Sequence record: NC_073085.1
Reading direction: 5' to 3' (one strand)
DNA from: Escherichia phage vB_EcoS_011D5
Length of the DNA stretch: 45,204 nt
The first letter of the stretch is position 1. The number at the start of each line of letters is the position of its first letter. Positions 8,962 to 31,436 of this stretch are shown in pieces. The notes beneath the pieces are model-generated. The model searched no databases, was not told the DNA's origin, and worked only from the letters and a program-made list of their open reading frames with translations. Position numbers and translations under genes: made by a program.

Positions 8962-11226
8962 ATGAGCTTAATTAAATTCGCGGTAACACGACCCGCTAAA
9001 AAAGGCGAAAAAGCCAGGGCGGAAAACTTCCAGATGACCACCGATGAATTTTTCGAATTTATCAATGACGCGAAAGAAATCTCCTCGGTGCATATCAACA
9101 AGACGGAAGATAAAGCCGAGTATGCGCGCCGCAAGCGTAAGGCCGATGGCATCGTAGCTTATACCAGTGACGGCCTGCGCCGCAAGACCAGTGCGGTGGA
9201 CCGCTCGATCCTGTTCTTCGATATTGACCGCACCGACACTCGCACCCTACGCCGCTGCCGTAAGGCTTTCATCGACGCGGGGCTGGAGCACGTATTCCAC
9301 ACAACCACCGGCGACCGCCACCCGCTGAAAGGCGGCACGCGTTGCGCCCGTTTCCTGGTACTCACTGACAAGCCTGTACCGGCGGAAGACCTGGGCCGTG
9401 TCCAGTATGCGCTATTACACCAACTTGGCCTGTCAGATGTGGACTTCGACGATTGCACGAAAGACACAAACCGCCTGATGTACCTGCCGCACCAGCAGTC
9501 TGTCATTAAGTGTCACTACGGCAAACGTGCCCGCGTCCGTCGTCTGCTCCGCCTGGCGGATACGCTTGGCGTGGAGAAGGAAGAAGTACGCCGCGAGCTT
9601 ACCCAGGGCGACGACGCAGTGGCAGACGGCATTCTGGACTGGTGCTTCCAGGCAGGATTCGAGGAGTTATCTTCCGGTCGCGGTTATGAAGTGCCGTGCC
9701 CGAACGAACATCTGCACAGCGGCGAAGGGTCGACGGCTATCATGGTCAAGGATGGCGAGATCCGTTTCAAGTGTATGCACACCGGAAACGAGTGTTGCTC
9801 GGAGCTAAATAGACACCAGCACCTGGCGCTACGTCTTATCGGGATACCGGACCACCTGAACGTCGAGCCGCACAACATGTCACGTAAGCAAATCGCCGCC
9901 ATCCTCCCAGGGCTGGACGACGAGGAAGTCGAATCCTTATATGAACATATTGTTGATGCGGTTGGCGACGGCGAAGAATACGGCGTGTGCACCGATGCGG
10001 ATCTGGATAACGAGCCGGTCGCACTATTCAGTAAGCACGACCCGATCATCGAAGGGCTGATTAACTTTAAATCGACCTGGTATATGGCGGGCGAGTCGAA
10101 TATAGGTAAGTCCTTCTACGTGCTGGGGCAGATGGGCGCGGTTGCCGCGGGTATCCCGTTTGGCGGTGCGAAGGTCGTCCAGTCTCATTGCTTCTATTTC
10201 GACGCGGAAGGTGGCGAAGCCTCCAACCAGCGTAAAGAAGCATTGCAGATTAAATATGAGCACGACCTGGACAAGCTGCACATTATAGACCTGCAGTCCC
10301 GCGGCTGGGATATCACCAGCAAGTCCGGTTTGCGCGAAGTTATCAGTTTTATCAACCGCACCGCTAACGGCGAACCGGTTGGCCTGGTGGCGTTCGACTC
10401 ACTCAACCAGACTGTTGCGCTGCGGTCCGCCGATGCTAAACCGTTTGACGAGAACAACGCCAGCGATATGGGTGAAGTGGTCAAAGCGCTGAAAGCCATT
10501 GCGGAAAACACAGGTGGCAGTGCGGGCGTCATCCACCACCCGGCGAAGGGTGCAAACGGCAGCAGATCTCCCCGTGGGTCCGGCGCACTGCATGGCGCTG
10601 TCGATTCTGCGTTCTTCCTGGAACAGCCGGACGACAACCAGCCGGGACAACTCAACCTGTATCACGAAAAATCACGTAACGGCATCAAGCAAGCGCCGCG
10701 TGGCTTCGTCCTGCTCAAGTGCAAGGTGAAGGTGGATCTCCGCAAGTCAGAAGCGTTCGCGTCGCACCAGTCCACCAGCACCGGGCCAGACTTCGGCGAC
10801 GTTGTTGCCGGTTGGGACGTCAAACCAATTGCATCCACGCCACGCGATGAGACTCTGTACCTCGTACCGGTCGCCCTGGCACCGTTCGCTATAGAACAGG
10901 CGAAGGCGGCGGGCAAAGCCGCAGTTAAGGAAGAGAACACCGCCGGTCCGCGCAACGAAAAAGAGAAAGTGCTTTATGCGGCCCTGGAAAAACTGATGGA
11001 AGATAACCCGAGCCACACTGGATTCAGTAAATCGGCAATTGTCCGCCAGGCGGGACTCGCGAAGGGAGGCACTTCGACGAAGGCAATCGACGATATGGTC
11101 GAGCGCGGCGTGATTGGTTTTTATACAGACCCGCACACCGGGGCCATCTATGGGTCGTCGAATTTGGTCATCAAATCGGATATTCCCATAACGCTTTCGG
11201 CGACCGATGATGACCTGAAAGATTAA
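8962..11226 (+). CDS. Bifunctional primase/helicase (AEP-type prim-pol N-domain, zinc-binding linker, RecA/DnaB-like ATPase)
   Basis: ILFFDIDR...FHTTTGDRH (AEP motifs); CPNEHLHS...CMHTGNECC; Walker A GESNIGKS; Walker B VAFDSLNQ. Confidence 0.8.
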   Translation: MSLIKFAVTRPAKKGEKARAENFQMTTDEFFEFINDAKEISSVHINKTEDKAEYARRKRKADGIVAYTSDGLRRKTSAVDRSILFFDIDRTDTRTLRRCRKAFIDAGLEHVFHTTTGDRHPLKGGTRCARFLVLTDKPVPAEDLGRVQYALLHQLGLSDVDFDDCTKDTNRLMYLPHQQSVIKCHYGKRARVRRLLRLADTLGVEKEEVRRELTQGDDAVADGILDWCFQAGFEELSSGRGYEVPCPNEHLHSGEGSTAIMVKDGEIRFKCMHTGNECCSELNRHQHLALRLIGIPDHLNVEPHNMSRKQIAAILPGLDDEEVESLYEHIVDAVGDGEEYGVCTDADLDNEPVALFSKHDPIIEGLINFKSTWYMAGESNIGKSFYVLGQMGAVAAGIPFGGAKVVQSHCFYFDAEGGEASNQRKEALQIKYEHDLDKLHIIDLQSRGWDITSKSGLREVISFINRTANGEPVGLVAFDSLNQTVALRSADAKPFDENNASDMGEVVKALKAIAENTGGSAGVIHHPAKGANGSRSPRGSGALHGAVDSAFFLEQPDDNQPGQLNLYHEKSRNGIKQAPRGFVLLKCKVKVDLRKSEAFASHQSTSTGPDFGDVVAGWDVKPIASTPRDETLYLVPVALAPFAIEQAKAAGKAAVKEENTAGPRNEKEKVLYAALEKLMEDNPSHTGFSKSAIVRQAGLAKGGTSTKAIDDMVERGVIGFYTDPHTGAIYGSSNLVIKSDIPITLSATDDDLKD

Positions 11227-11319
11227 ATTTTGCGCGCATTGGTTGCCATTTTGAGTGTTTTTAGCTGGTCGCATTGGTTGCCGTGTGGTGTAAATATAGT
11301 GAATAGTTATGCAATAAAA

Positions 11320-11490
11320 CTGCATAAAGTAAGCGGGACAAAAAGCGGGACAGACCAGGGGCGGGACAAAGCGGGACAGCACCCCTGTCCCACCCCGGAT
11401 GACGCGGCCTGGCGGGGAGCGGGACAGGCGGGACAAACCCCAGTCTTTCAGACTAGACGGGGGTCAGTTGGCCCCCTCGTCTGAGACTGC
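11320..11490 (+). repeat. Composite repeat element copy A: 6 direct GCGGGACA(R) units, an inverted TGTCCC and a conserved GC hairpin block
   Basis: Direct reading; ~85-90 percent identical to 28560-28730. Confidence 0.85.
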
Positions 11491-11705
11491 ATAAAATCCG
11501 GGATTGCATAATACACGGCAGCATATTGGAAATCGCGGTCGTCGCTGAACTAGGCAACCAATGCGAGTTGCAGAATGGTGGGTGGGGAATGCAGTTTGCA
11601 GTTACAGCAGATAGCGATCAACTTTTTCATGCGCATGATTAATATTGGTTGCATTCGTGCCAGCACCCTGCTAGATTGGTTGCACACCAACAAGAGGACT
11701 GAACA

Positions 11706-25860: not shown

Positions 25861-26454
25861 GTGGCTGAAGTCTACTCATTCGCCGCCACTATTGCTACGT
25901 GGGTGGATAAGACGAAGGAGAACAACGATAAGGCGGTGCGGGCGTACGGGATGCAAATACTCGGACGCCTTATTGAGATCTCACCGGTGGGCGACCCTCG
26001 CCGGTGGAAAATTAACAGGGCTTACGCGCTGGCCCGCCAGCACGCGAACAATGTGAACGCCGCGCAGCGTCGCAAGAATGGCGGCAAACTGAAGCGCGGG
26101 CAGAAAAAGCACGCCAGCGTGCTGGTGTCATTCAAGACTAAAAACGGCAACGTCACGTTCCGCCAGCGTGGCTGGGCTGCGAAGAATTACACCGGCGGAC
26201 GCTTCCGGGGAAACTGGCAGGTGACGTTCGACCGCCCGGCTGTTGGCGCTATTGACCGCGTGGACAAGGCCGGAACGGCAACATTAGCCGCTGGGCGTGA
26301 AGTGTTGGCGCACTATGATTCGAGTGAATACGGGTCGATCTGGTTTACTAACAACGTGCCATACGCGCAGCGACTTGAGTATGGCTGGAGTAAACAAGCG
26401 CCAGCGGGGATTGTTCGCGTCGTAGCGGCAGAAATTAATTCGAAGGTGAAATAA
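25861..26454 (+). CDS. Putative neck / tail completion protein
   Basis: Synteny; GTG start with RBS AAGGGG. Confidence 0.45.
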   Translation: MAEVYSFAATIATWVDKTKENNDKAVRAYGMQILGRLIEISPVGDPRRWKINRAYALARQHANNVNAAQRRKNGGKLKRGQKKHASVLVSFKTKNGNVTFRQRGWAAKNYTGGRFRGNWQVTFDRPAVGAIDRVDKAGTATLAAGREVLAHYDSSEYGSIWFTNNVPYAQRLEYGWSKQAPAGIVRVVAAEINSKVK

Positions 26455-26876
26455 TGAGCAATACCGCAATCCGCAAAGCGCTTAACAGCGTGGTTGAAGA
26501 GTTATCGGCAAGCCTGAGCACAAGCCAGCGTCCGATTAGGGTTAACTGGGAGAACGTGAGCGGCGACCACGCAAACGGCAGCGGTGTCTACCTGGAGCCG
26601 TACCTGCTACCGGCCCCGACCCAGTTTGTGGGCTTACAGCAGAAGGGTCGGATCTATGCTGGCGTATATCAGGTTGCCGTGGTGTTTCCCGCAGGAACTG
26701 GAACACAGTACGCGAGCGAACTGGCGGACGCCATCGCTACGTCTGATAAGTGGCTGGCGGTGAAGATTTCCGGTGCGTCATTTCAGCTTCAGGACGCGCC
26801 ATACACCAGTTCAGTGATTGAAGACGTTGATCGCGCCCGCATCGTGGTTACAGTACCCTACACCTGTTGCGCCTGA
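26454..26876 (+). CDS. Putative tail terminator protein
   Basis: Synteny immediately upstream of the major tail protein gene. Confidence 0.45.
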   Translation: MSNTAIRKALNSVVEELSASLSTSQRPIRVNWENVSGDHANGSGVYLEPYLLPAPTQFVGLQQKGRIYAGVYQVAVVFPAGTGTQYASELADAIATSDKWLAVKISGASFQLQDAPYTSSVIEDVDRARIVVTVPYTCCA

Positions 26877-26937: not shown

Positions 26938-27663
26938 ATGGGTTATCAACTTCCTAACGGGTCTAGCGTCCAGATTGGGTCCGTACTGGGCAACGGTATC
27001 GCTGTTACGGCAGCTACCAACGCCGCCGCGTCGATCTCTGATCTTACGAAAGGTTGCGTTATCACCTGCGCGGCTTCTCATGGCCTGCAAGTTGGTGACG
27101 TGGTTATGTTCACTAAAACCCCGTGGGTACGTGCGCTGAACCGCGCGTTTATCGTGGGTAAAGTGGCGACTAACGACGTTACACTGGCGCGCTTCGACAC
27201 CTCGGACGTTACCAAATATCCTACCGGTGCTTTCGGCGTAGGCACACCAGGCGAGGTGGTGAAGGTGTCGAGCTTTATCGACTTCCCGTTTATCACTAAC
27301 GTCGCCGTGTCTGGTGGCGACCAGCAGACTACTACCTTCCAGCCGTTGCAGGTGAATACCGCGATCAGTCTGAACACCACGAAAAACCCGTTGGTCCAGA
27401 CCTACACTTTCACCCACGACGAAGAAGACCCGATCCGCCCGATTCTGGAAGACCTGGACGACACACAGAAAACCACTGTGATTAAGTTCACCAACCCGGC
27501 AGCGGCAAGCGGCAAAGGTGAGATCCGCATTTACCCGGCTAAGGTGTCTTTCCAGAAGATTCCATCTGCTGAAGTAAACAACGTGGAGACGGTGGAGTCC
27601 ACCCTCACTATGCAGTCCGATATGGTTATTTACCGTAAGGATTTGGTCGAGGCGCTGTCGTAA
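26938..27663 (+). CDS. Major tail (tube) protein
   Basis: 241 aa; RBS CAGGAG; followed by strong terminator and G/T chaperone genes. Confidence 0.7.
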   Translation: MGYQLPNGSSVQIGSVLGNGIAVTAATNAAASISDLTKGCVITCAASHGLQVGDVVMFTKTPWVRALNRAFIVGKVATNDVTLARFDTSDVTKYPTGAFGVGTPGEVVKVSSFIDFPFITNVAVSGGDQQTTTFQPLQVNTAISLNTTKNPLVQTYTFTHDEEDPIRPILEDLDDTQKTTVIKFTNPAAASGKGEIRIYPAKVSFQKIPSAEVNNVETVESTLTMQSDMVIYRKDLVEALS

Positions 27664-27691
27664 TTTGGTCGCTTAAATAGCGGGTGTTAAT

Positions 27692-27717
27692 ATGGGGCCA
27701 GTACGGCCCCTTTTTTA
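27692..27717 (+). terminator. Intrinsic terminator after the major tail gene
   Basis: GGGGCC-agta-CGGCCCC followed by T6. Confidence 0.75.
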
Positions 27718-27732
27718 TTGGAGAATTACATA

Positions 27733-28095
27733 ATGGCTAAATCACCACTCTTCACACTTGACCCTAAACCGACCTTTAAGCTGCCGATTGAGATCCCGCG
27801 CCCTGGTGAGAACGAACCGGGCAAAATGACGTTTACCGTGCGCCACCGCCCTATCGACGAATTTTCGCAGACCATGCAGGACACTGAGCGCAAATTGTCG
27901 GAGTATGACGACAATGACCCGGAAGGATTTAACGTTATGGTCGAGGCCATCATGCACGTCGCTGAAGGCTGGAATTTGCCGGACGAATTTAATGCTGCCA
28001 ACGTCCGCCGCCTGGTAGTCAACTACCCGCGCGCGTTCGGCGTGTTCCATACGTCATACTACCTCGAATTGATGGGGTTGCGTGAAAAAAACTAA
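27733..28095 (+). CDS. Tail assembly chaperone (gpG-like)
   Basis: Acidic ~120 aa protein between major tail and tape measure genes; ends at slippery run. Confidence 0.7.
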   Translation: MAKSPLFTLDPKPTFKLPIEIPRPGENEPGKMTFTVRHRPIDEFSQTMQDTERKLSEYDDNDPEGFNVMVEAIMHVAEGWNLPDEFNAANVRRLVVNYPRAFGVFHTSYYLELMGLREKN

Positions 28096-28409
28096 TTGAG
28101 GCGGCGCGGCGCTTTTATGGCCCGCCGCCACCCTCCGAAGATTTAGCCGCAAGTTTATGGGGCGCGACACCTGAAGACGTGTGTCCACCCGTTGCGCTGT
28201 GGCCCGACAACGCGAAGGTAGTCGCAGTCTTCACAGATTGCTCCACGCAATGGCGTACCGGATTTGGTGGCGCATACGGCATCGACTACGGCGTACTGGA
28301 ATGGTTATTTAAGATGCACGGCATCGAAAACGCGCAACGTGCGTTTAAAGATATCAAGCTAATGGAACGCGTTGCGCTGGATGAGATGGCGCGGCAGAAC
28401 CCCGCATAA
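27733..28409 (+). CDS. Tail assembly chaperone frameshift fusion (gpGT-like), joined by -1 shift at ~28086-28092
   Basis: Downstream ORF 28179..28409 lies in the -1 frame of the G-like gene and has no start or RBS of its own. Confidence 0.6.
28086..28092 (+). other. Candidate -1 programmed frameshift slippery heptamer A_AAA_AAC
   Basis: Heptamer 3 nt before the G-like stop; -1 frame open from 28086 to 28409. Confidence 0.65.
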
Positions 28410-28730
28410 CGAAGCGGGACAGGCGGGACGTCCCGTTTTGTCCCGCCACCATTAAACCGCATATATACTCACTTTCATTGCATAAACTAAAAGCGGGACA
28501 GGGGTGCTGTCCCGATCTGTCCCGCCCCTCAAAAGTGAATGGCTATGCGGTTTTTCTGCATAAAACAAACGGGACAGAAAGCGGGACAGAATGAGGCGGG
28601 ACAAAGCGGGACAGCACCCCTGTCCCAGTCAGTGCTGCCGCTGGTTTTAGCCGATCGGGACAGGCGGGACAAAGCCCAGTCTTTCAGACTAGACGGGGGT
28701 CAATGGCCCCCCTCGTCTGAGACTGAATAA
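28410..28730 (+). repeat. Composite repeat region copy B: ~12 GCGGGACA/TGTCCCGC units in both orientations, GGGACGTCCC palindrome, conserved hairpin block
   Basis: Direct reading; 28560-28730 is ~85-90 percent identical to 11320-11490. Confidence 0.85.
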
Positions 28731-28793
28731 GGTTTGTTTTAAATTCGCTGATACAATGACCGACGGCAACTGCATAAAAAGGGGGACTGCATA

Positions 28794-31436
28794 ATGGCAG
28801 ATCAGGCAGCGGGCATCACGCTCAAGGCGGACGTCGCGCAAATTAAAACGGCTAATACTGTGCTGGACACATTCGCGCAGAAATCCGAGAACACAGAACA
28901 GAAAGTAAAGAAATTAAACGACACACTCGGCAAGTCGAAAAAGGTTACTGGCGACGCCGCGGGCGGAATGGAAAAGTTAGCGACTGAATCGCAGCGCGCC
29001 GCCGACGGCATGACGAAACAGGAGCGACTAGCCAGCCGATTAGGCATGTCGACCAAAAACCTGGGATTTGCTTCACGGAACGCGGCATTCCAGTTACAGG
29101 ATATTGCGGTAACGCTTGAGATGGGTATGCCGGTGCACCGCGTCATGCTTCAGCAGTTACCACAGCTAACCGGCGCATTCGGCGGATTAGGTAACACGCT
29201 GCGTTATGTTGCGGGCTTCCTCGGCCCAGTAGGGATCGGACTTGCGGCAGTAACGGCGACATTAGGCGTGGGCGTGGCAATCACGTCACGGGCAGAGAAC
29301 CAGGTAGCCGCGCTTAATAAGACGCTGGCGCTGTCCGGTAATATTTCAGGCCTCACAGCTAACCAGATCCTTGTGCTGTCCGAGAACGCTGAGCGCATGG
29401 GCGGGTCATTTCGCAAGACGCGTGACACAATCCAGGCGCTGGCGGCGGCGGGTGTGAAAGCGGGTGGTGACTTCGGCGCATTGGCTAAGGTAGTTAATGA
29501 CTTTGCGAAGGTGTCCAGCCAGCCGATCGAGGATGTGGTGGCGGCGGTGGCGAAGCTGTCAACCGACCCCGTTGGCGGACTGCGTGCGCTGGCGGATAAG
29601 TATCACGTCGTAAACGAAGCGCAGATCCAGCAGGTACAGTCGCTCGTTGATGCGGGTCGTGAGACAGACGCAGTTGCGTTGGCTAACAAAACAGCCGCTG
29701 CGTCGTTCACCAGTATGACCAATGAGATCAAGGCGAACATGGGTACGCTTGAGCGATCTATGAACGTCGTCACATCGGCAGCCAAATCAATGTGGGATGC
29801 CATCCTGGATGTGGGCCGCGCGCAGTCCTCCAATGAGTCCGAGATGAAAGCGCGCGAATCACTACAGCGCATGACCACGGCTTACTATGCCGAGATGAAA
29901 GCGGTAAACGCTGCCGGTGGGGTAATGACTGAAGCGCAGAAAGCACGTATTAACATGCTTTACAGCGAACTGGTCGCCCAGGAAAAAGTGGTGGCGTCGC
30001 TCACCCTGCGTAACCGTGCTGAGCGAGACAACGCCCGCGCCGCAGACGAATCCGCAAAGGCGAACGAGGAGGCCAACCGCACTGCCCGTGACCGCGCCGC
30101 GTTCGAGAAGGAATACGCCACCAACGCTAAGAAGCGCGCCGACGAGATCGCCCGCCTCAATTTGCTGAATAAGCGCGGCGTTATTGATGAGAAAGAACTA
30201 GCCGAGGCGGTGAAGCAGGTAAACGAGCGGTACAAAGACCCAGCCCCGAAAAAGGCCGCGGCTGTTCGCGTGGATGCCGGTATGAAAATGCTGGAAGTCG
30301 CACGGAGCGAACTGGCCCAGCTTCGAGAATCCGGCAAGCAGATCGAAGCCAACGCGTCTACGCAGACCCGCACGCAACGCGCTCAAGCGGCCTTAAACAA
30401 GCTGATCGCCGACAATGAGCAGTTAATCGCTGCGAGCAAAGAAAGAGCGCTAACGGCAGCAGAAAAGCAGCAATTAGTCGAGTTCGGGCGCGTGAAGGAA
30501 GTCCGCGAGCAGATCGTCGAAGAAGCCAAATTGCTGGATGCGAAAGAGCAGCAGGTTAAGGCGCACGCGCAGATCGATGCCTTCGTTAAGAACCAGAACG
30601 CCGAACTAAAAGCCACCGCCGCGGGGTATGCGCTTTCCACTCGCGAAGCGGCAAACCTGCGCGAAGAATTGCAGCTAATTGACCGCCTGAAGCGGGTTGG
30701 CGCTAACGATACCGATATTGACAAGGCGGTGTCTAAGCTGCGAGAAGTGCAGGAAGCACAGACCGGCGCTAACGCCTCGTTATGGGATGGATTCAGTCGC
30801 GGGCTTAAGGATAGCGTGGATGAAATGGGTAACGGATATACGCAGATGGCGTCGCTCACGAAATTTACATTCAGCGCTATGCAGGACACGATGAACGAGT
30901 TTTTCGAGACTGGTAAGCTGAACGCAAAGGATATGGTTAAGTCCATCCTGAGCGAATTAATCAAGCTGGCTACCTCGCAGGCGTTCAAGTCCATCGTTAG
31001 CGCTTTCGGTGGTGACGGCGGCAAAAACGGATTGTTCGGCGCTATCTTCTCTGGCCTCACTAAGAATGCGGACGGCGGAGCGTACACAGGCGGCAATCTC
31101 GCGGCCTATTCGGGGAAAGTGGTAAGCCAGCCTACCTTTTTCAGTTATGGCGTCCAGGCGTTCGCTAAGGGCGCTGGGTTGATGGGTGAGGCTGGACCCG
31201 AGGCCATCATGCCACTGAAGCGCGGGCCGGACGGGAAACTGGGCGTTGCCGCGTCTGGCGCAGGCGGTGGTATGGTCGTGACGACTAACGTTTACACGGG
31301 GACCGGTAAGACGGACACCAGTGTTAGCGGGCCAGACCCACGTACCGCGCAGGCGTTCGGCAAGCAAATCACCGAGGCGGTGAAGTCCGAGATCGTGAAA
31401 GCGACTAAACCAGGTGGTGTACTTTACAAACGATGA
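28794..31436 (+). CDS. Tail tape measure protein
   Basis: 880 aa Ala/Gln-rich helical protein downstream of G/GT; Gly-rich segments. Confidence 0.85.
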   Translation: MADQAAGITLKADVAQIKTANTVLDTFAQKSENTEQKVKKLNDTLGKSKKVTGDAAGGMEKLATESQRAADGMTKQERLASRLGMSTKNLGFASRNAAFQLQDIAVTLEMGMPVHRVMLQQLPQLTGAFGGLGNTLRYVAGFLGPVGIGLAAVTATLGVGVAITSRAENQVAALNKTLALSGNISGLTANQILVLSENAERMGGSFRKTRDTIQALAAAGVKAGGDFGALAKVVNDFAKVSSQPIEDVVAAVAKLSTDPVGGLRALADKYHVVNEAQIQQVQSLVDAGRETDAVALANKTAAASFTSMTNEIKANMGTLERSMNVVTSAAKSMWDAILDVGRAQSSNESEMKARESLQRMTTAYYAEMKAVNAAGGVMTEAQKARINMLYSELVAQEKVVASLTLRNRAERDNARAADESAKANEEANRTARDRAAFEKEYATNAKKRADEIARLNLLNKRGVIDEKELAEAVKQVNERYKDPAPKKAAAVRVDAGMKMLEVARSELAQLRESGKQIEANASTQTRTQRAQAALNKLIADNEQLIAASKERALTAAEKQQLVEFGRVKEVREQIVEEAKLLDAKEQQVKAHAQIDAFVKNQNAELKATAAGYALSTREAANLREELQLIDRLKRVGANDTDIDKAVSKLREVQEAQTGANASLWDGFSRGLKDSVDEMGNGYTQMASLTKFTFSAMQDTMNEFFETGKLNAKDMVKSILSELIKLATSQAFKSIVSAFGGDGGKNGLFGAIFSGLTKNADGGAYTGGNLAAYSGKVVSQPTFFSYGVQAFAKGAGLMGEAGPEAIMPLKRGPDGKLGVAASGAGGGMVVTTNVYTGTGKTDTSVSGPDPRTAQAFGKQITEAVKSEIVKATKPGGVLYKR

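What the first reader, a model, noticed from the sequence alone, without database searches (positions are those of the whole stretch)
28080..28100. Candidate -1 programmed frameshift (A_AAA_AAC) producing a G-T-like tail chaperone fusion
The G-like ORF (27733-28095) ends three codons after the slippery heptamer A AAA AAC (28086-28092). The -1 frame is open from 28086 to 28409 and encodes a T-like domain with no start codon or RBS of its own. This matches the conserved chaperone frameshift of long-tailed phages, normally immediately upstream of the tape measure gene; here the noncoding repeat region intervenes.
Basis: partly seen in the sequence, partly recalled or inferred. Interest (0 to 1): 0.35.

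Follow-up and report, generated by a model that had tools for sequence, protein, structure and literature searches.

The report
Tail chaperone G/GT -1 frameshift site
This is the usual programmed -1 ribosomal frameshift that lets a long-tailed phage make a short tail-assembly chaperone and a rarer extended version from one gene; it is real and strongly conserved, though missing from the five annotated records of this phage genus that I opened, and it is biologically ordinary.

Summary
The window is a Dhillonvirus, an E. coli siphophage 99.9% identical to phage EC115.

- **The two reading frames.** ORF 27733-28095 is a tail assembly chaperone (Pfam PF08748, E 2e-23). The -1 frame, open only from 28086 to 28409, encodes a DUF1799 domain (PF08809, E 3e-21).
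- **The shift window.** It is 10 nt long. It is bounded by a -1-frame TGA (28083-85) and the G stop TAA (28093-95), and holds exactly the in-phase heptamer A_AAA_AAC.
- **Conservation.** Across 80 distinct junction contexts from 112 related loci (27-100% protein identity), 78 carry A_AAA_AAC or G_GGA_AAC directly followed by the stop, and T lies in the -1 frame in 79.
- **Coding without a start.** In 21 Dhillonvirus sequences, the 29 codons before the first possible start vary 6/0/16 by codon position. That GTG start is present in only 5 of 21.
- **Extra constraint.** Synonymous diversity across G-T is lowest at the slip site plus a GC hairpin 7 nt downstream.
- **Status elsewhere.** The homologous frameshift is already annotated in a related Webervirus.

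The only unusual feature is a 384-nt repeat module separating T from the tape-measure gene. Low novelty: an unannotated member of a known kind.

The parts
27694..27716 (+). Intrinsic terminator-like hairpin plus T-run between the tail tube gene and G
   Evidence: GGGGCCAGTACGGCCCC followed by TTTTTT. Terminators are annotated at the same position in relatives Motto and Snyder.
27721..27724 (+). Shine-Dalgarno GGAG for G
   Evidence: Read directly from the sequence; 8 nt before ATG 27733.
27733..28095 (+). G-like tail assembly chaperone ORF (120 aa, 13.9 kDa), the zero-frame product
   Evidence: PF08748 Phage_TAC_4, E 2.2e-23, full length. phrog_569, E 9e-40. Variable sites by codon position 11/7/84. 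Mass.
28083..28085 (+). TGA stop in the -1 frame, the 5' limit of the shift window
28086..28092 (+). Slippery heptamer A_AAA_AAC, in phase with G
   Evidence: Invariant in 21 Dhillonvirus sequences. A_AAA_AAC or G_GGA_AAC in 78 of 80 distinct homologous contexts.
28093..28095 (+). G stop codon TAA, immediately 3' of the heptamer; possibly part of the signal
   Evidence: A stop (TAA or TGA) lies at this exact position in 79 of 80 contexts. The overlapping -1-frame codon always starts with A (Ile, Lys, Thr, Arg, including rare AGG, AGA and ATA).
28100..28129 (+). Candidate stimulatory hairpin (GGCGGCG...CGCCGCC), 7 nt after the heptamer
   Evidence: -20.6 kcal/mol. Synonymous-site diversity is lowest at 28080-28131. 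A hairpin lies at the same position in T1-like relatives, with compensatory changes. Absent or weak in several other clades.
28092..28409 (+). T-like extension in the -1 frame (105 codons plus stop), with no start of its own
   Evidence: PF08809 DUF1799, E 3e-21. phrog_680. Variable sites by codon position 24/9/74, and 6/0/16 in the 29 codons before the first possible start.
27733..28409 (+). Predicted GT fusion: 27733..28092 joined to 28092..28409 (225 aa, about 25.6 kDa)
   Evidence: phrog_17368 covers residues 1-223 against profile positions 1-212 of 213. The fusion aligns colinearly, without gaps at the junction, across 10 divergent fusions. Mass.
28410..28793 (.). Noncoding repeat module separating T from the tape-measure gene (context, not part of the frameshift signal)
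28794..31436 (+). Tape measure protein gene (880 aa)
   Evidence: PF06791, E 2.6e-43, and PF09718.

Best explanation
A programmed -1 ribosomal frameshift at A_AAA_AAC (28086-28092) lets a minority of ribosomes translating the chaperone gene G avoid the TAA at 28093. These ribosomes continue in the -1 frame to 28409.

**Products.** The gene yields two proteins with the same N-terminus. One is abundant G (120 aa). The other is rare GT (225 aa), which is G plus a DUF1799 'T' domain.

**Function (inferred).** By analogy with lambda gpG/gpGT, both products coat the tape-measure protein. The T domain then recruits the tail tube protein, and neither ends up in the virion.

**How the shift occurs (inferred).** tRNA-Lys on AAA and tRNA-Asn on AAC re-pair on AAA_AAA. 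This happens either as a classical P/A-site tandem slip or as an E/P-site slip while the stop codon waits in the A site. Both routes give the junction ...REKN|LIEAARR.... A P-site-only slip before Asn-tRNA arrives would give ...REKK|LIE.... The GC hairpin 7 nt downstream (28100-28129) probably raises the efficiency.

**Expected level (inferred).** A few percent or less. In E. coli AAC is a poorer A-site slip codon than AAG, and IS1 uses the same heptamer at a low level. This suits the roughly 30:1 G:GT ratio needed in lambda.

**Shown here:** the sequence architecture, the homology, the conservation and the coding signature. **Inferred:** the fusion itself, its level, the role of the hairpin and of the stop codon, and the protein interactions.
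For: - **Domain identity and placement:**
- **Shift window:** 10 nt, holding only the in-phase heptamer.
- **Census of 112 loci, 80 distinct contexts:** 74 A_AAA_AAC plus stop, 4 G_GGA_AAC plus TGA, 1 A_AAA_G; T in the -1 frame in all 79.
- **Distant relatives:** sequences at 27-43% identity align colinearly across the junction.
- **Wider library:** 149 of the 150 best cluster representatives, out of 1.8 billion proteins, match only the G part (ending at residue 119-120) or only the T part.
- **Coding signature without a start:** variable sites 6/0/16 by codon position in 28092-28178. GTG 28179 is present in 5 of 21; the only universal in-frame ATG is at codon 75 of 105.
- **Extra constraint:** synonymous diversity is lowest at the slip site plus hairpin, pi 0.04 against a mean of 0.22, the lowest of 208 windows.
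- **Hairpin:** conserved in two clades, 86% of cells paired against 55% or less in slid controls.
- **Annotation:** a homologous frameshift is annotated in phage Snyder.
- **Literature:** A_AAA_AAC is a proven -1 site in an E. coli IS cluster (PMC4066793). [quoted passage not shown]
Against: - No protein-level data exist for this phage or genus; no paper was found.
- In E. coli A_AAA_AAC is markedly less shift-prone than A_AAA_AAG (PMC5009743, PMC4066793), so the efficiency could be very low.
- The hairpin is not significant against shuffles over a 95-nt stretch (z -0.28).
- In most Dhillonviruses the hairpin has an inner A.C mismatch.
- The hairpin is absent or weak in several clades, and its covariation amounts to one between-clade event.
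- No conserved upstream Shine-Dalgarno-like stimulator was seen.
Confidence: 0.9

Rival explanations
1. Transcriptional slippage. RNA polymerase adds one extra A in the A7 run (28085-28091), producing a minority mRNA in which G and T are in frame. The ribosome does not shift.
For: The window has seven consecutive A residues. Only a few percent of fusion is needed. Public contigs show length variation at this run: A8 in L038 and A5 instead of A6 in four T1-like contigs.
Against: - Homologues with G_GGA_AAC have no homopolymer run yet keep the same architecture.
- T1-like relatives have only six A residues.
- The motif is always in the X_XXY_YYZ phase and at the very end of G, even where the overlap is 50-200 nt. 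Slippage by the polymerase would not require this.
- The length variants in L038, L115 and L124 are accompanied by other frame breaks in the same contigs, so they look like sequencing errors. L131 and L143 show only the A5 change.
- From established knowledge, efficient slippage by E. coli RNA polymerase needs runs of about nine or more.
Confidence: 0.04
2. T is made as a separate protein, either from its own start (GTG 28179 or an internal ATG) or by termination-reinitiation at the G stop. No fusion is formed.
For: The window has an in-frame GTG at 28179. Gene callers annotate short ORFs inside T in GenBank records. phrog_14875 is a family of such 38-aa fragments.
Against: - GTG 28179 is GTT or ATT in 16 of 21 relatives and has no Shine-Dalgarno sequence.
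- The only conserved in-frame ATG is at codon 75, after the invariant TQWR and G-x-DY motifs.
- The 29 codons upstream of 28179 evolve as coding sequence (6/0/16).
- The codon next to the stop (ATT, AAA, ATA, AGG, ACA) is not a conserved start-like codon.
- The annotated fragments differ from record to record.
Confidence: 0.03
3. The -1 ORF is a decaying remnant, or the frame break is a sequencing error, with no function.
For: Nothing specific. It is listed only because most database records call the pieces 'hypothetical protein'.
Against: The same break is present in 156 of 157 matching phage records at full length and in 79 of 80 distinct contexts. T is under purifying selection (24/9/74).
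Confidence: 0.01

Closest known systems
Bacteriophage lambda gpG/gpGT programmed -1 frameshift (Levin, Hendrix & Casjens 1993; Xu, Hendrix & Duda 2004, 2013, 2014, as cited in PMC5009743)
   Same: - Two overlapping ORFs lie between the tail tube and tape-measure genes.
- There is an X_XXY_YYZ heptamer at the end of the first ORF.
- The second ORF is in the -1 frame and has no start of its own.
- The expected outcome is a low level of fusion alongside an abundant short product.
   Different: - There is no detectable sequence relationship. Only PF08748 and PF08809 are hit at E up to 1. From my knowledge of Pfam, lambda G and T belong to other families.
- The heptamer is A_AAA_AAC, not G_GGA_AAG.
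- In this family the stop codon directly abuts the heptamer.
- Here T is separated from the tape-measure gene by 384 nt of repeats.
Tape-measure chaperone frameshift of T1-like phages (Drexlerviridae), e.g. Klebsiella phage Snyder CPT_Snyder_14/15, annotated as 'frameshift product'
   Same: - The protein families are homologous (30-38% identity over the whole fusion).
- The junction position is the same.
- Tlsvirus, Warwickvirus and Guelphvirus use the same A_AAA_AAC plus stop.
- The T1-like loci examined (several Drexlerviridae genera) have a hairpin at the same distance downstream.
   Different: - Webervirus (the Snyder type) shifts on A_AAA_G one codon earlier.
- In all these phages the T stop overlaps or abuts the tape-measure start, with a median gap of -1 nt.
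- The hairpin arms differ in sequence.
IS1 InsA/InsAB' -1 frameshift in E. coli (cluster A_AAA_AAC_1 in PMC4066793)
   Same: The heptamer is the same, it is read by the same host ribosomes, and the output is a low-efficiency fusion product.
   Different: It is a transposase, not a phage chaperone. No stimulator has been established for IS1, whereas here a hairpin and an abutting stop codon are candidates.
g-t frameshift of haloarchaeal tailed viruses HCTV-1, HCTV-2 and HCTV-5 (PMC5009743)
   Same: [quoted passage not shown] The first two are the same pair of alternative heptamers found in this family.
   Different: The hosts are archaea. No sequence homology was tested here.

Membership tests
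G/GT-type tail assembly chaperone with programmed -1 frameshift (Xu et al. 2004 class) | Two consecutive ORFs located between the major tail (tube) gene and the tape-measure gene | tested here: met
   Tube protein 26938-27663 (PF08813). G 27733-28095. T to 28409. Tape-measure 28794-31436 (PF06791). Caveat: there is a 384-nt gap before the tape-measure gene.
G/GT-type tail assembly chaperone with programmed -1 frameshift (Xu et al. 2004 class) | The second ORF overlaps the end of the first, lies in the -1 frame, and lacks its own start and ribosome-binding site | tested here: met
   10-nt overlap. T in the -1 frame in 79 of 80 contexts. No conserved start before codon 75.
G/GT-type tail assembly chaperone with programmed -1 frameshift (Xu et al. 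2004 class) | In-phase slippery heptamer X_XXY_YYZ within the overlap, conserved among homologues | tested here: met
   A_AAA_AAC at 28086-28092. 78 of 80 contexts carry A_AAA_AAC or G_GGA_AAC.
G/GT-type tail assembly chaperone with programmed -1 frameshift (Xu et al. 2004 class) | The -1 extension is under protein-level selection from the shift site onwards | tested here: met
   Variable sites by codon position 6/0/16 for 28092-28178 and 24/9/74 for all of T. Gap-free alignment across the junction.
G/GT-type tail assembly chaperone with programmed -1 frameshift (Xu et al. 2004 class) | A fusion protein is actually made, at a low and fixed ratio to G | not testable with these tools
   Needs a western blot, mass spectrometry or a reporter assay.
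G/GT-type tail assembly chaperone with programmed -1 frameshift (Xu et al. 2004 class) | G and GT bind the tape-measure protein, T binds the tube protein, and both are absent from virions | not testable with these tools
   Inferred from lambda only (PMC5009743).
Pfam PF08748 Phage_TAC_4 (G part) | Score above the curated gathering cut-off over the full model | tested here: met
   83.3 bits against a cut-off of 21.1; residues 1-120 against model positions 1-124 of 124.
Pfam PF08809 DUF1799 (T part) | Score above the curated gathering cut-off over the full model | tested here: met
   75.9 bits against a cut-off of 26; model positions 1-80 of 80.
Stimulated -1 frameshift signal (heptamer plus downstream RNA structure at 5-9 nt) | A stable structure at the right spacing, conserved with covariation | tested here: inconclusive
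   - The hairpin lies 7 nt downstream and folds at -20.6 kcal/mol.
- Synonymous-site diversity is lowest there.
- It is present in the Dhillonvirus and T1-like clades, with 1-2 covarying pairs.
- It is weak or absent in other clades.
- It is not significant against shuffles over 95 nt.
Stimulated -1 frameshift signal (upstream Shine-Dalgarno-like element, dnaX or IS911 type) | A conserved SD-like sequence about 7-14 nt 5' of the heptamer | tested here: not met
   Only the GGG of a Gly codon lies there. The fourth base varies (G, A or C) among relatives.

The most novel reading that the evidence does not exclude
In this chaperone family the stop codon may be a working part of the frameshift signal. 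The heptamer X_XXA_AAC is a poor A-site slip sequence in E. coli. It is followed at once by TAA or TGA in 79 of 80 contexts, and the overlapping -1-frame codon is forced to begin with A, even at the cost of rare AGG, AGA or ATA codons.

This would fit a termination-coupled slip: the heptamer sits in the E and P sites while the ribosome waits for a release factor. The GT level would then respond to release-factor activity.

In addition, Dhillonviruses have broken the ancestral stop-start coupling of T to the tape-measure gene. They have inserted a 384-nt module that is duplicated next to the helicase-primase gene. This could place the chaperone and the tape-measure gene under separate control.
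Probability: 0.2. Interest if true: 0.4.

Novelty: new member of a known kind. Interest (0 to 1): 0.15.

Why it matters
The main value is better annotation. The five annotated Dhillonvirus GenBank records I opened (YD-2008.s, Kenya-K19, EE09, Bas85 and Shigella phage 1b) split the T region into arbitrary 'hypothetical' fragments. They often label G 'tail length tape measure protein', a name that comes from PHROGs. The correct description is one chaperone gene with two products.

The family-wide census is a small but clean comparative dataset for people who study frameshifting in bacteria. It covers an invariant stop next to the heptamer, the exchange of A_AAA_AAC for G_GGA_AAC, and a hairpin present in some clades only. 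None of this changes how tail assembly is understood.

Tried and rejected
- **Structure prediction.** I did not pursue it because the Pfam matches are already decisive.
- **First protein search.** The word-indexed search returned only 3 hits. It was replaced by tblastn against phages, locus scans and the exhaustive HMMER search.
- **No relative found.** There was no solved structure by sequence and no NCBIfam model. Rfam gave only sub-threshold microRNA-like hits on the long inverted repeat downstream and nothing at the slip site.
- **Upstream Shine-Dalgarno-like stimulator.** Considered and rejected, because the G-run is not conserved.
- **Sigma-70 promoter scan of 27500-28900.** It found nothing, so I make no claim about a separate promoter for the tape-measure gene.
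- **Apparent in-frame fusion in L038.** It comes from an A8 run in a contig with a second frame break, and is best explained as sequencing error.
- **P0011.** It is a single 206-aa in-frame protein lacking the C-terminal end of G. It is one case among 150 and was not followed up.
- **Literature.** Searches found no paper describing this frameshift in Dhillonvirus.

Full report
**What the window is.** The 1.2 kb around the finding is 99.9% identical to Escherichia phage EC115 and 90-98% identical to about 150 other Dhillonvirus genomes, including YD-2008.s, JL1, SSL-2009a and EK99P-1. The local gene order is:

- tail terminator, 26454-26876, PF13554
- tail tube protein, 26938-27663, PF08813
- the two ORFs in question
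- tape-measure protein, 28794-31436, PF06791 and PF09718
- minor tail protein

**Checking the observation.**

- ATG 27733, with GGAG 8 nt upstream, opens a 120-codon ORF ending ...CGT GAA AAA AAC TAA, with the TAA at 28093-28095.
- The heptamer A_AAA_AAC at 28086-28092 is therefore in the X_XXY_YYZ phase.
- The -1 frame reads ...GCG TGA AAA AAA CTA ATT GAG.... It is closed by TGA at 28083-28085 and then open to TAA at 28407-28409.
- A ribosome can therefore pass from G into the downstream frame only within a 10-nt window, and that window is exactly the heptamer plus the stop.

The stop follows the heptamer directly, not three codons later. AAAAAAC is rare in the window, with 3 copies against 7.2 expected.

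**What the two frames encode.**

| Part | Best Pfam match | Score |
|---|---|---|
| Zero-frame product | PF08748 Phage_TAC_4, full length | E 2.2e-23 |
| -1 frame | PF08809 DUF1799 | E 3e-21 |

In PHROGs the conceptual fusion matches phrog_17368 over positions 1-212 of its 213-position profile. Full-length fusions of this kind therefore already exist in annotated phages. PHROGs labels all of these families 'tail length tape measure protein'. That label is a misnomer, and it has spread into many GenBank records.

**Evidence from close relatives.** I aligned the window with 20 other Dhillonvirus loci (83-98% identity) without gaps across the coding region.

- The heptamer, the flanking TGA and the TAA are invariant.
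- Variable sites by codon position are 11/7/84 in G and 24/9/74 in the T frame.
- They are 6/0/16 in the 29 T-frame codons (28092-28178) that lie before the first possible start codon.
- In the noncoding DNA after 28409 the pattern is flat, at 12/14/13.

The stretch directly after the slip site therefore evolves as protein-coding sequence in the -1 frame. The window's in-frame GTG at 28179 is GTT or ATT in 16 of 21 sequences. The only universally conserved in-frame ATG is codon 75 of 105, downstream of the invariant TQWR and G-x-DY motifs. GenBank annotators place different short 'hypothetical' ORFs here, some of them in the wrong frame.

**Evidence from distant relatives.**

- tblastn with the conceptual fusion finds 1154 phage records. 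In nearly all rows listed the match comes as two pieces in different frames.
- In ten hand-checked lineages the junction is the same:

| Lineage | Junction |
|---|---|
| Dhillonvirus, Yanchengvirus, Tlsvirus, Warwickvirus, Guelphvirus | A_AAA_AAC, then TAA |
| Ralstonia, Pseudomonas and Stenotrophomonas phages | G_GGA_AAC, then TGA |
| Webervirus | A_AAA_G, one codon earlier |

  The fusions align colinearly, with no gap at the junction, at 27-43% identity to the window's fusion.
- A census of 112 loci gave 80 distinct junction sequences:
  - 74 with A_AAA_AAC plus a stop
  - 4 with G_GGA_AAC plus TGA
  - 1 with A_AAA_G
  - 1 in-frame case, L038, whose A8 run sits in a contig with a second frame break and is probably a sequencing error
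- In an exhaustive HMMER search of 1.8 billion cluster representatives, 149 of the best 150 hits match only the G part (ending at residue 119-120) or only the T part.
- Swapping one canonical heptamer for another, in the same phase and at the same position, is what a ribosomal slip predicts. A polymerase slip does not predict it.

**The stop codon.** A stop lies immediately 3' of the heptamer in 79 of 80 contexts, although it alternates between TAA and TGA. The -1-frame codon that overlaps its last base always begins with A. The residue there varies (Ile, Lys, Thr, Arg), and it is sometimes encoded by the rare codons ATA, AGG or AGA (read). The position of the stop is therefore under selection. 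This may be because G needs an exact C-terminus. It may also be because a slowly decoded stop in the A site promotes the slip. The sequence cannot separate these two possibilities.

**Possible stimulators.** A GC hairpin (GGCGGCG-C-GGC ... GCC-CGCCGCC, 28100-28129) begins 7 nt after the heptamer.

- It folds at -20.6 kcal/mol in the window and -15.6 kcal/mol in the commoner variant, which has an inner A.C mismatch.
- Pairwise diversity at third codon positions across G-T is lowest at 28080-28131. It is 0.04 there against a mean of 0.22, the lowest of 208 windows of that size. This shows constraint beyond the protein code.
- T1-like relatives have a hairpin at the same place with different arms (GGGCGGUUU ... 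AARCCGCCC).
- On a gap-free alignment of 26 distinct sequences from the two clades, 86% of cells pair, against 55% or less when the 3' arm is slid. The base pairs at alignment columns 20/39 and 21/38 covary between the clades.

Against a stimulatory role:

- The covariation is essentially one event.
- The fold is not significant against shuffles over 95 nt.
- Several other clades show no convincing structure.

I rate a stimulatory role as plausible, at roughly even odds. No conserved upstream Shine-Dalgarno-like element was found.

**Mechanism and expected level.** In E. coli the A-site shift from AAC to AAA is tolerated less well than the shift from AAG. A_AAA_AAC is therefore much less shift-prone than A_AAA_AAG (PMC5009743, PMC4066793). 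It is nonetheless a proven natural -1 site in an E. coli IS cluster (PMC4066793); from my own knowledge this cluster is IS1. A low-efficiency site fits the biology. Lambda needs about 30 G per GT, and phage chaperone sites of the HK97 type measured 6-7% (PMC5009743, PMC3711429).

The predicted products are G (120 aa, 13.9 kDa) and GT (225 aa, about 25.6 kDa).

- With a tandem slip or an E/P-site slip, Asn is incorporated before the shift. The junction is then ...REKN-LIEAARR....
- With a P-site-only slip before Asn-tRNA arrives, the junction is ...REKK-LIE....

**Rivals.**

- *Transcriptional slippage on the A7 run.* It is unlikely to be the designed mechanism. G_GGA_AAC homologues have no homopolymer run, T1-like relatives have only six A residues, and the phase and position are conserved even where the overlap is long. 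A small contribution in this phage cannot be excluded.
- *Independent initiation, or termination-reinitiation.* Neither has a conserved start-like codon to work from.
- *A pseudogene or a sequencing error.* The conservation excludes this.

**How it differs from the usual arrangement.** In 80 non-Dhillonvirus relatives the T stop and the tape-measure start overlap or nearly touch (median gap -1 nt). In Dhillonviruses the gap is typically 382-394 nt. The insert at 28410-28793 shows no coding signature and is packed with CGGGACA repeats. About 190 nt of it are duplicated, at 82% identity, at 11.3 kb, just after the helicase-primase gene. The chaperone genes of this genus are therefore no longer translationally coupled to the tape-measure gene. 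I did not establish what the module does.

**Novelty.** The mechanism class has been known since 1993 and its generality since 2004. The same protein family already carries an annotated frameshift in Klebsiella phage Snyder. I found no paper and no GenBank annotation describing it in Dhillonvirus. This is an unannotated member of a known kind and of low interest to a specialist.

Noticed in passing
window 28410-28793 and window 11290-11500: The 384-nt noncoding gap between T and the tape-measure gene holds 11 copies of CGGGACA on both strands and a 32-nt inverted repeat (28495-28526 / 28595-28626, 94% complementary). A second cluster of 6 copies lies at 11334-11435, just after the helicase-primase gene (8962-11226). 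About 190 nt of the two regions are 82% identical, including a shared hairpin AGACGGGGGTCA..CCCCCTCGTCT and CTGCATAA motifs. The window has 22 CGGGACA copies against 6.2 expected. This could be an array of protein-binding sites (regulator- or origin-like); its function is unknown.
   Followed up: partly
window 27694-27716: A strong intrinsic-terminator-like hairpin with a T-run lies between the tail tube gene and the chaperone gene. Terminators are annotated at the same place in relatives Motto and Snyder (L025, L113). It may lower expression of the chaperone and tape-measure genes relative to the tube protein.
   Followed up: no
window 27733-28409; L001, L019, L020, L023: Public annotation is inconsistent. 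PHROGs names the G, T and GT families 'tail length tape measure protein', and GenBank records copy this. The T region is cut into arbitrary short ORFs, some in the wrong frame. One of these fragments has become its own 38-aa family, phrog_14875.
   Followed up: yes
L038 1820-1827; L115, L124, L131 and L143 near position 905: Some public contigs have a different A-run length at the slip site: A8 instead of A7 in L038, and A5 instead of A6 in four T1-like contigs. L038, L115 and L124 also carry other frame breaks, so these are probably homopolymer sequencing errors rather than natural in-frame variants.
   Followed up: partly
protein P0011: P0011 is a single 206-aa predicted protein that spans both the G and T parts in one frame but lacks the C-terminal end of G (...VYLL-RAAVRAIY...). 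It may be a natural in-frame GT fusion made by a deletion. It was the only such case among the 150 best hits.
   Followed up: no
window 28092-28097 and the homologous positions in L026-L112: Because the zero-frame stop must be kept, the first -1-frame codons after the shift are often rare in E. coli: CTA here, and ATA, AGG or AGA in relatives. I did not examine whether slow decoding there matters.
   Followed up: no
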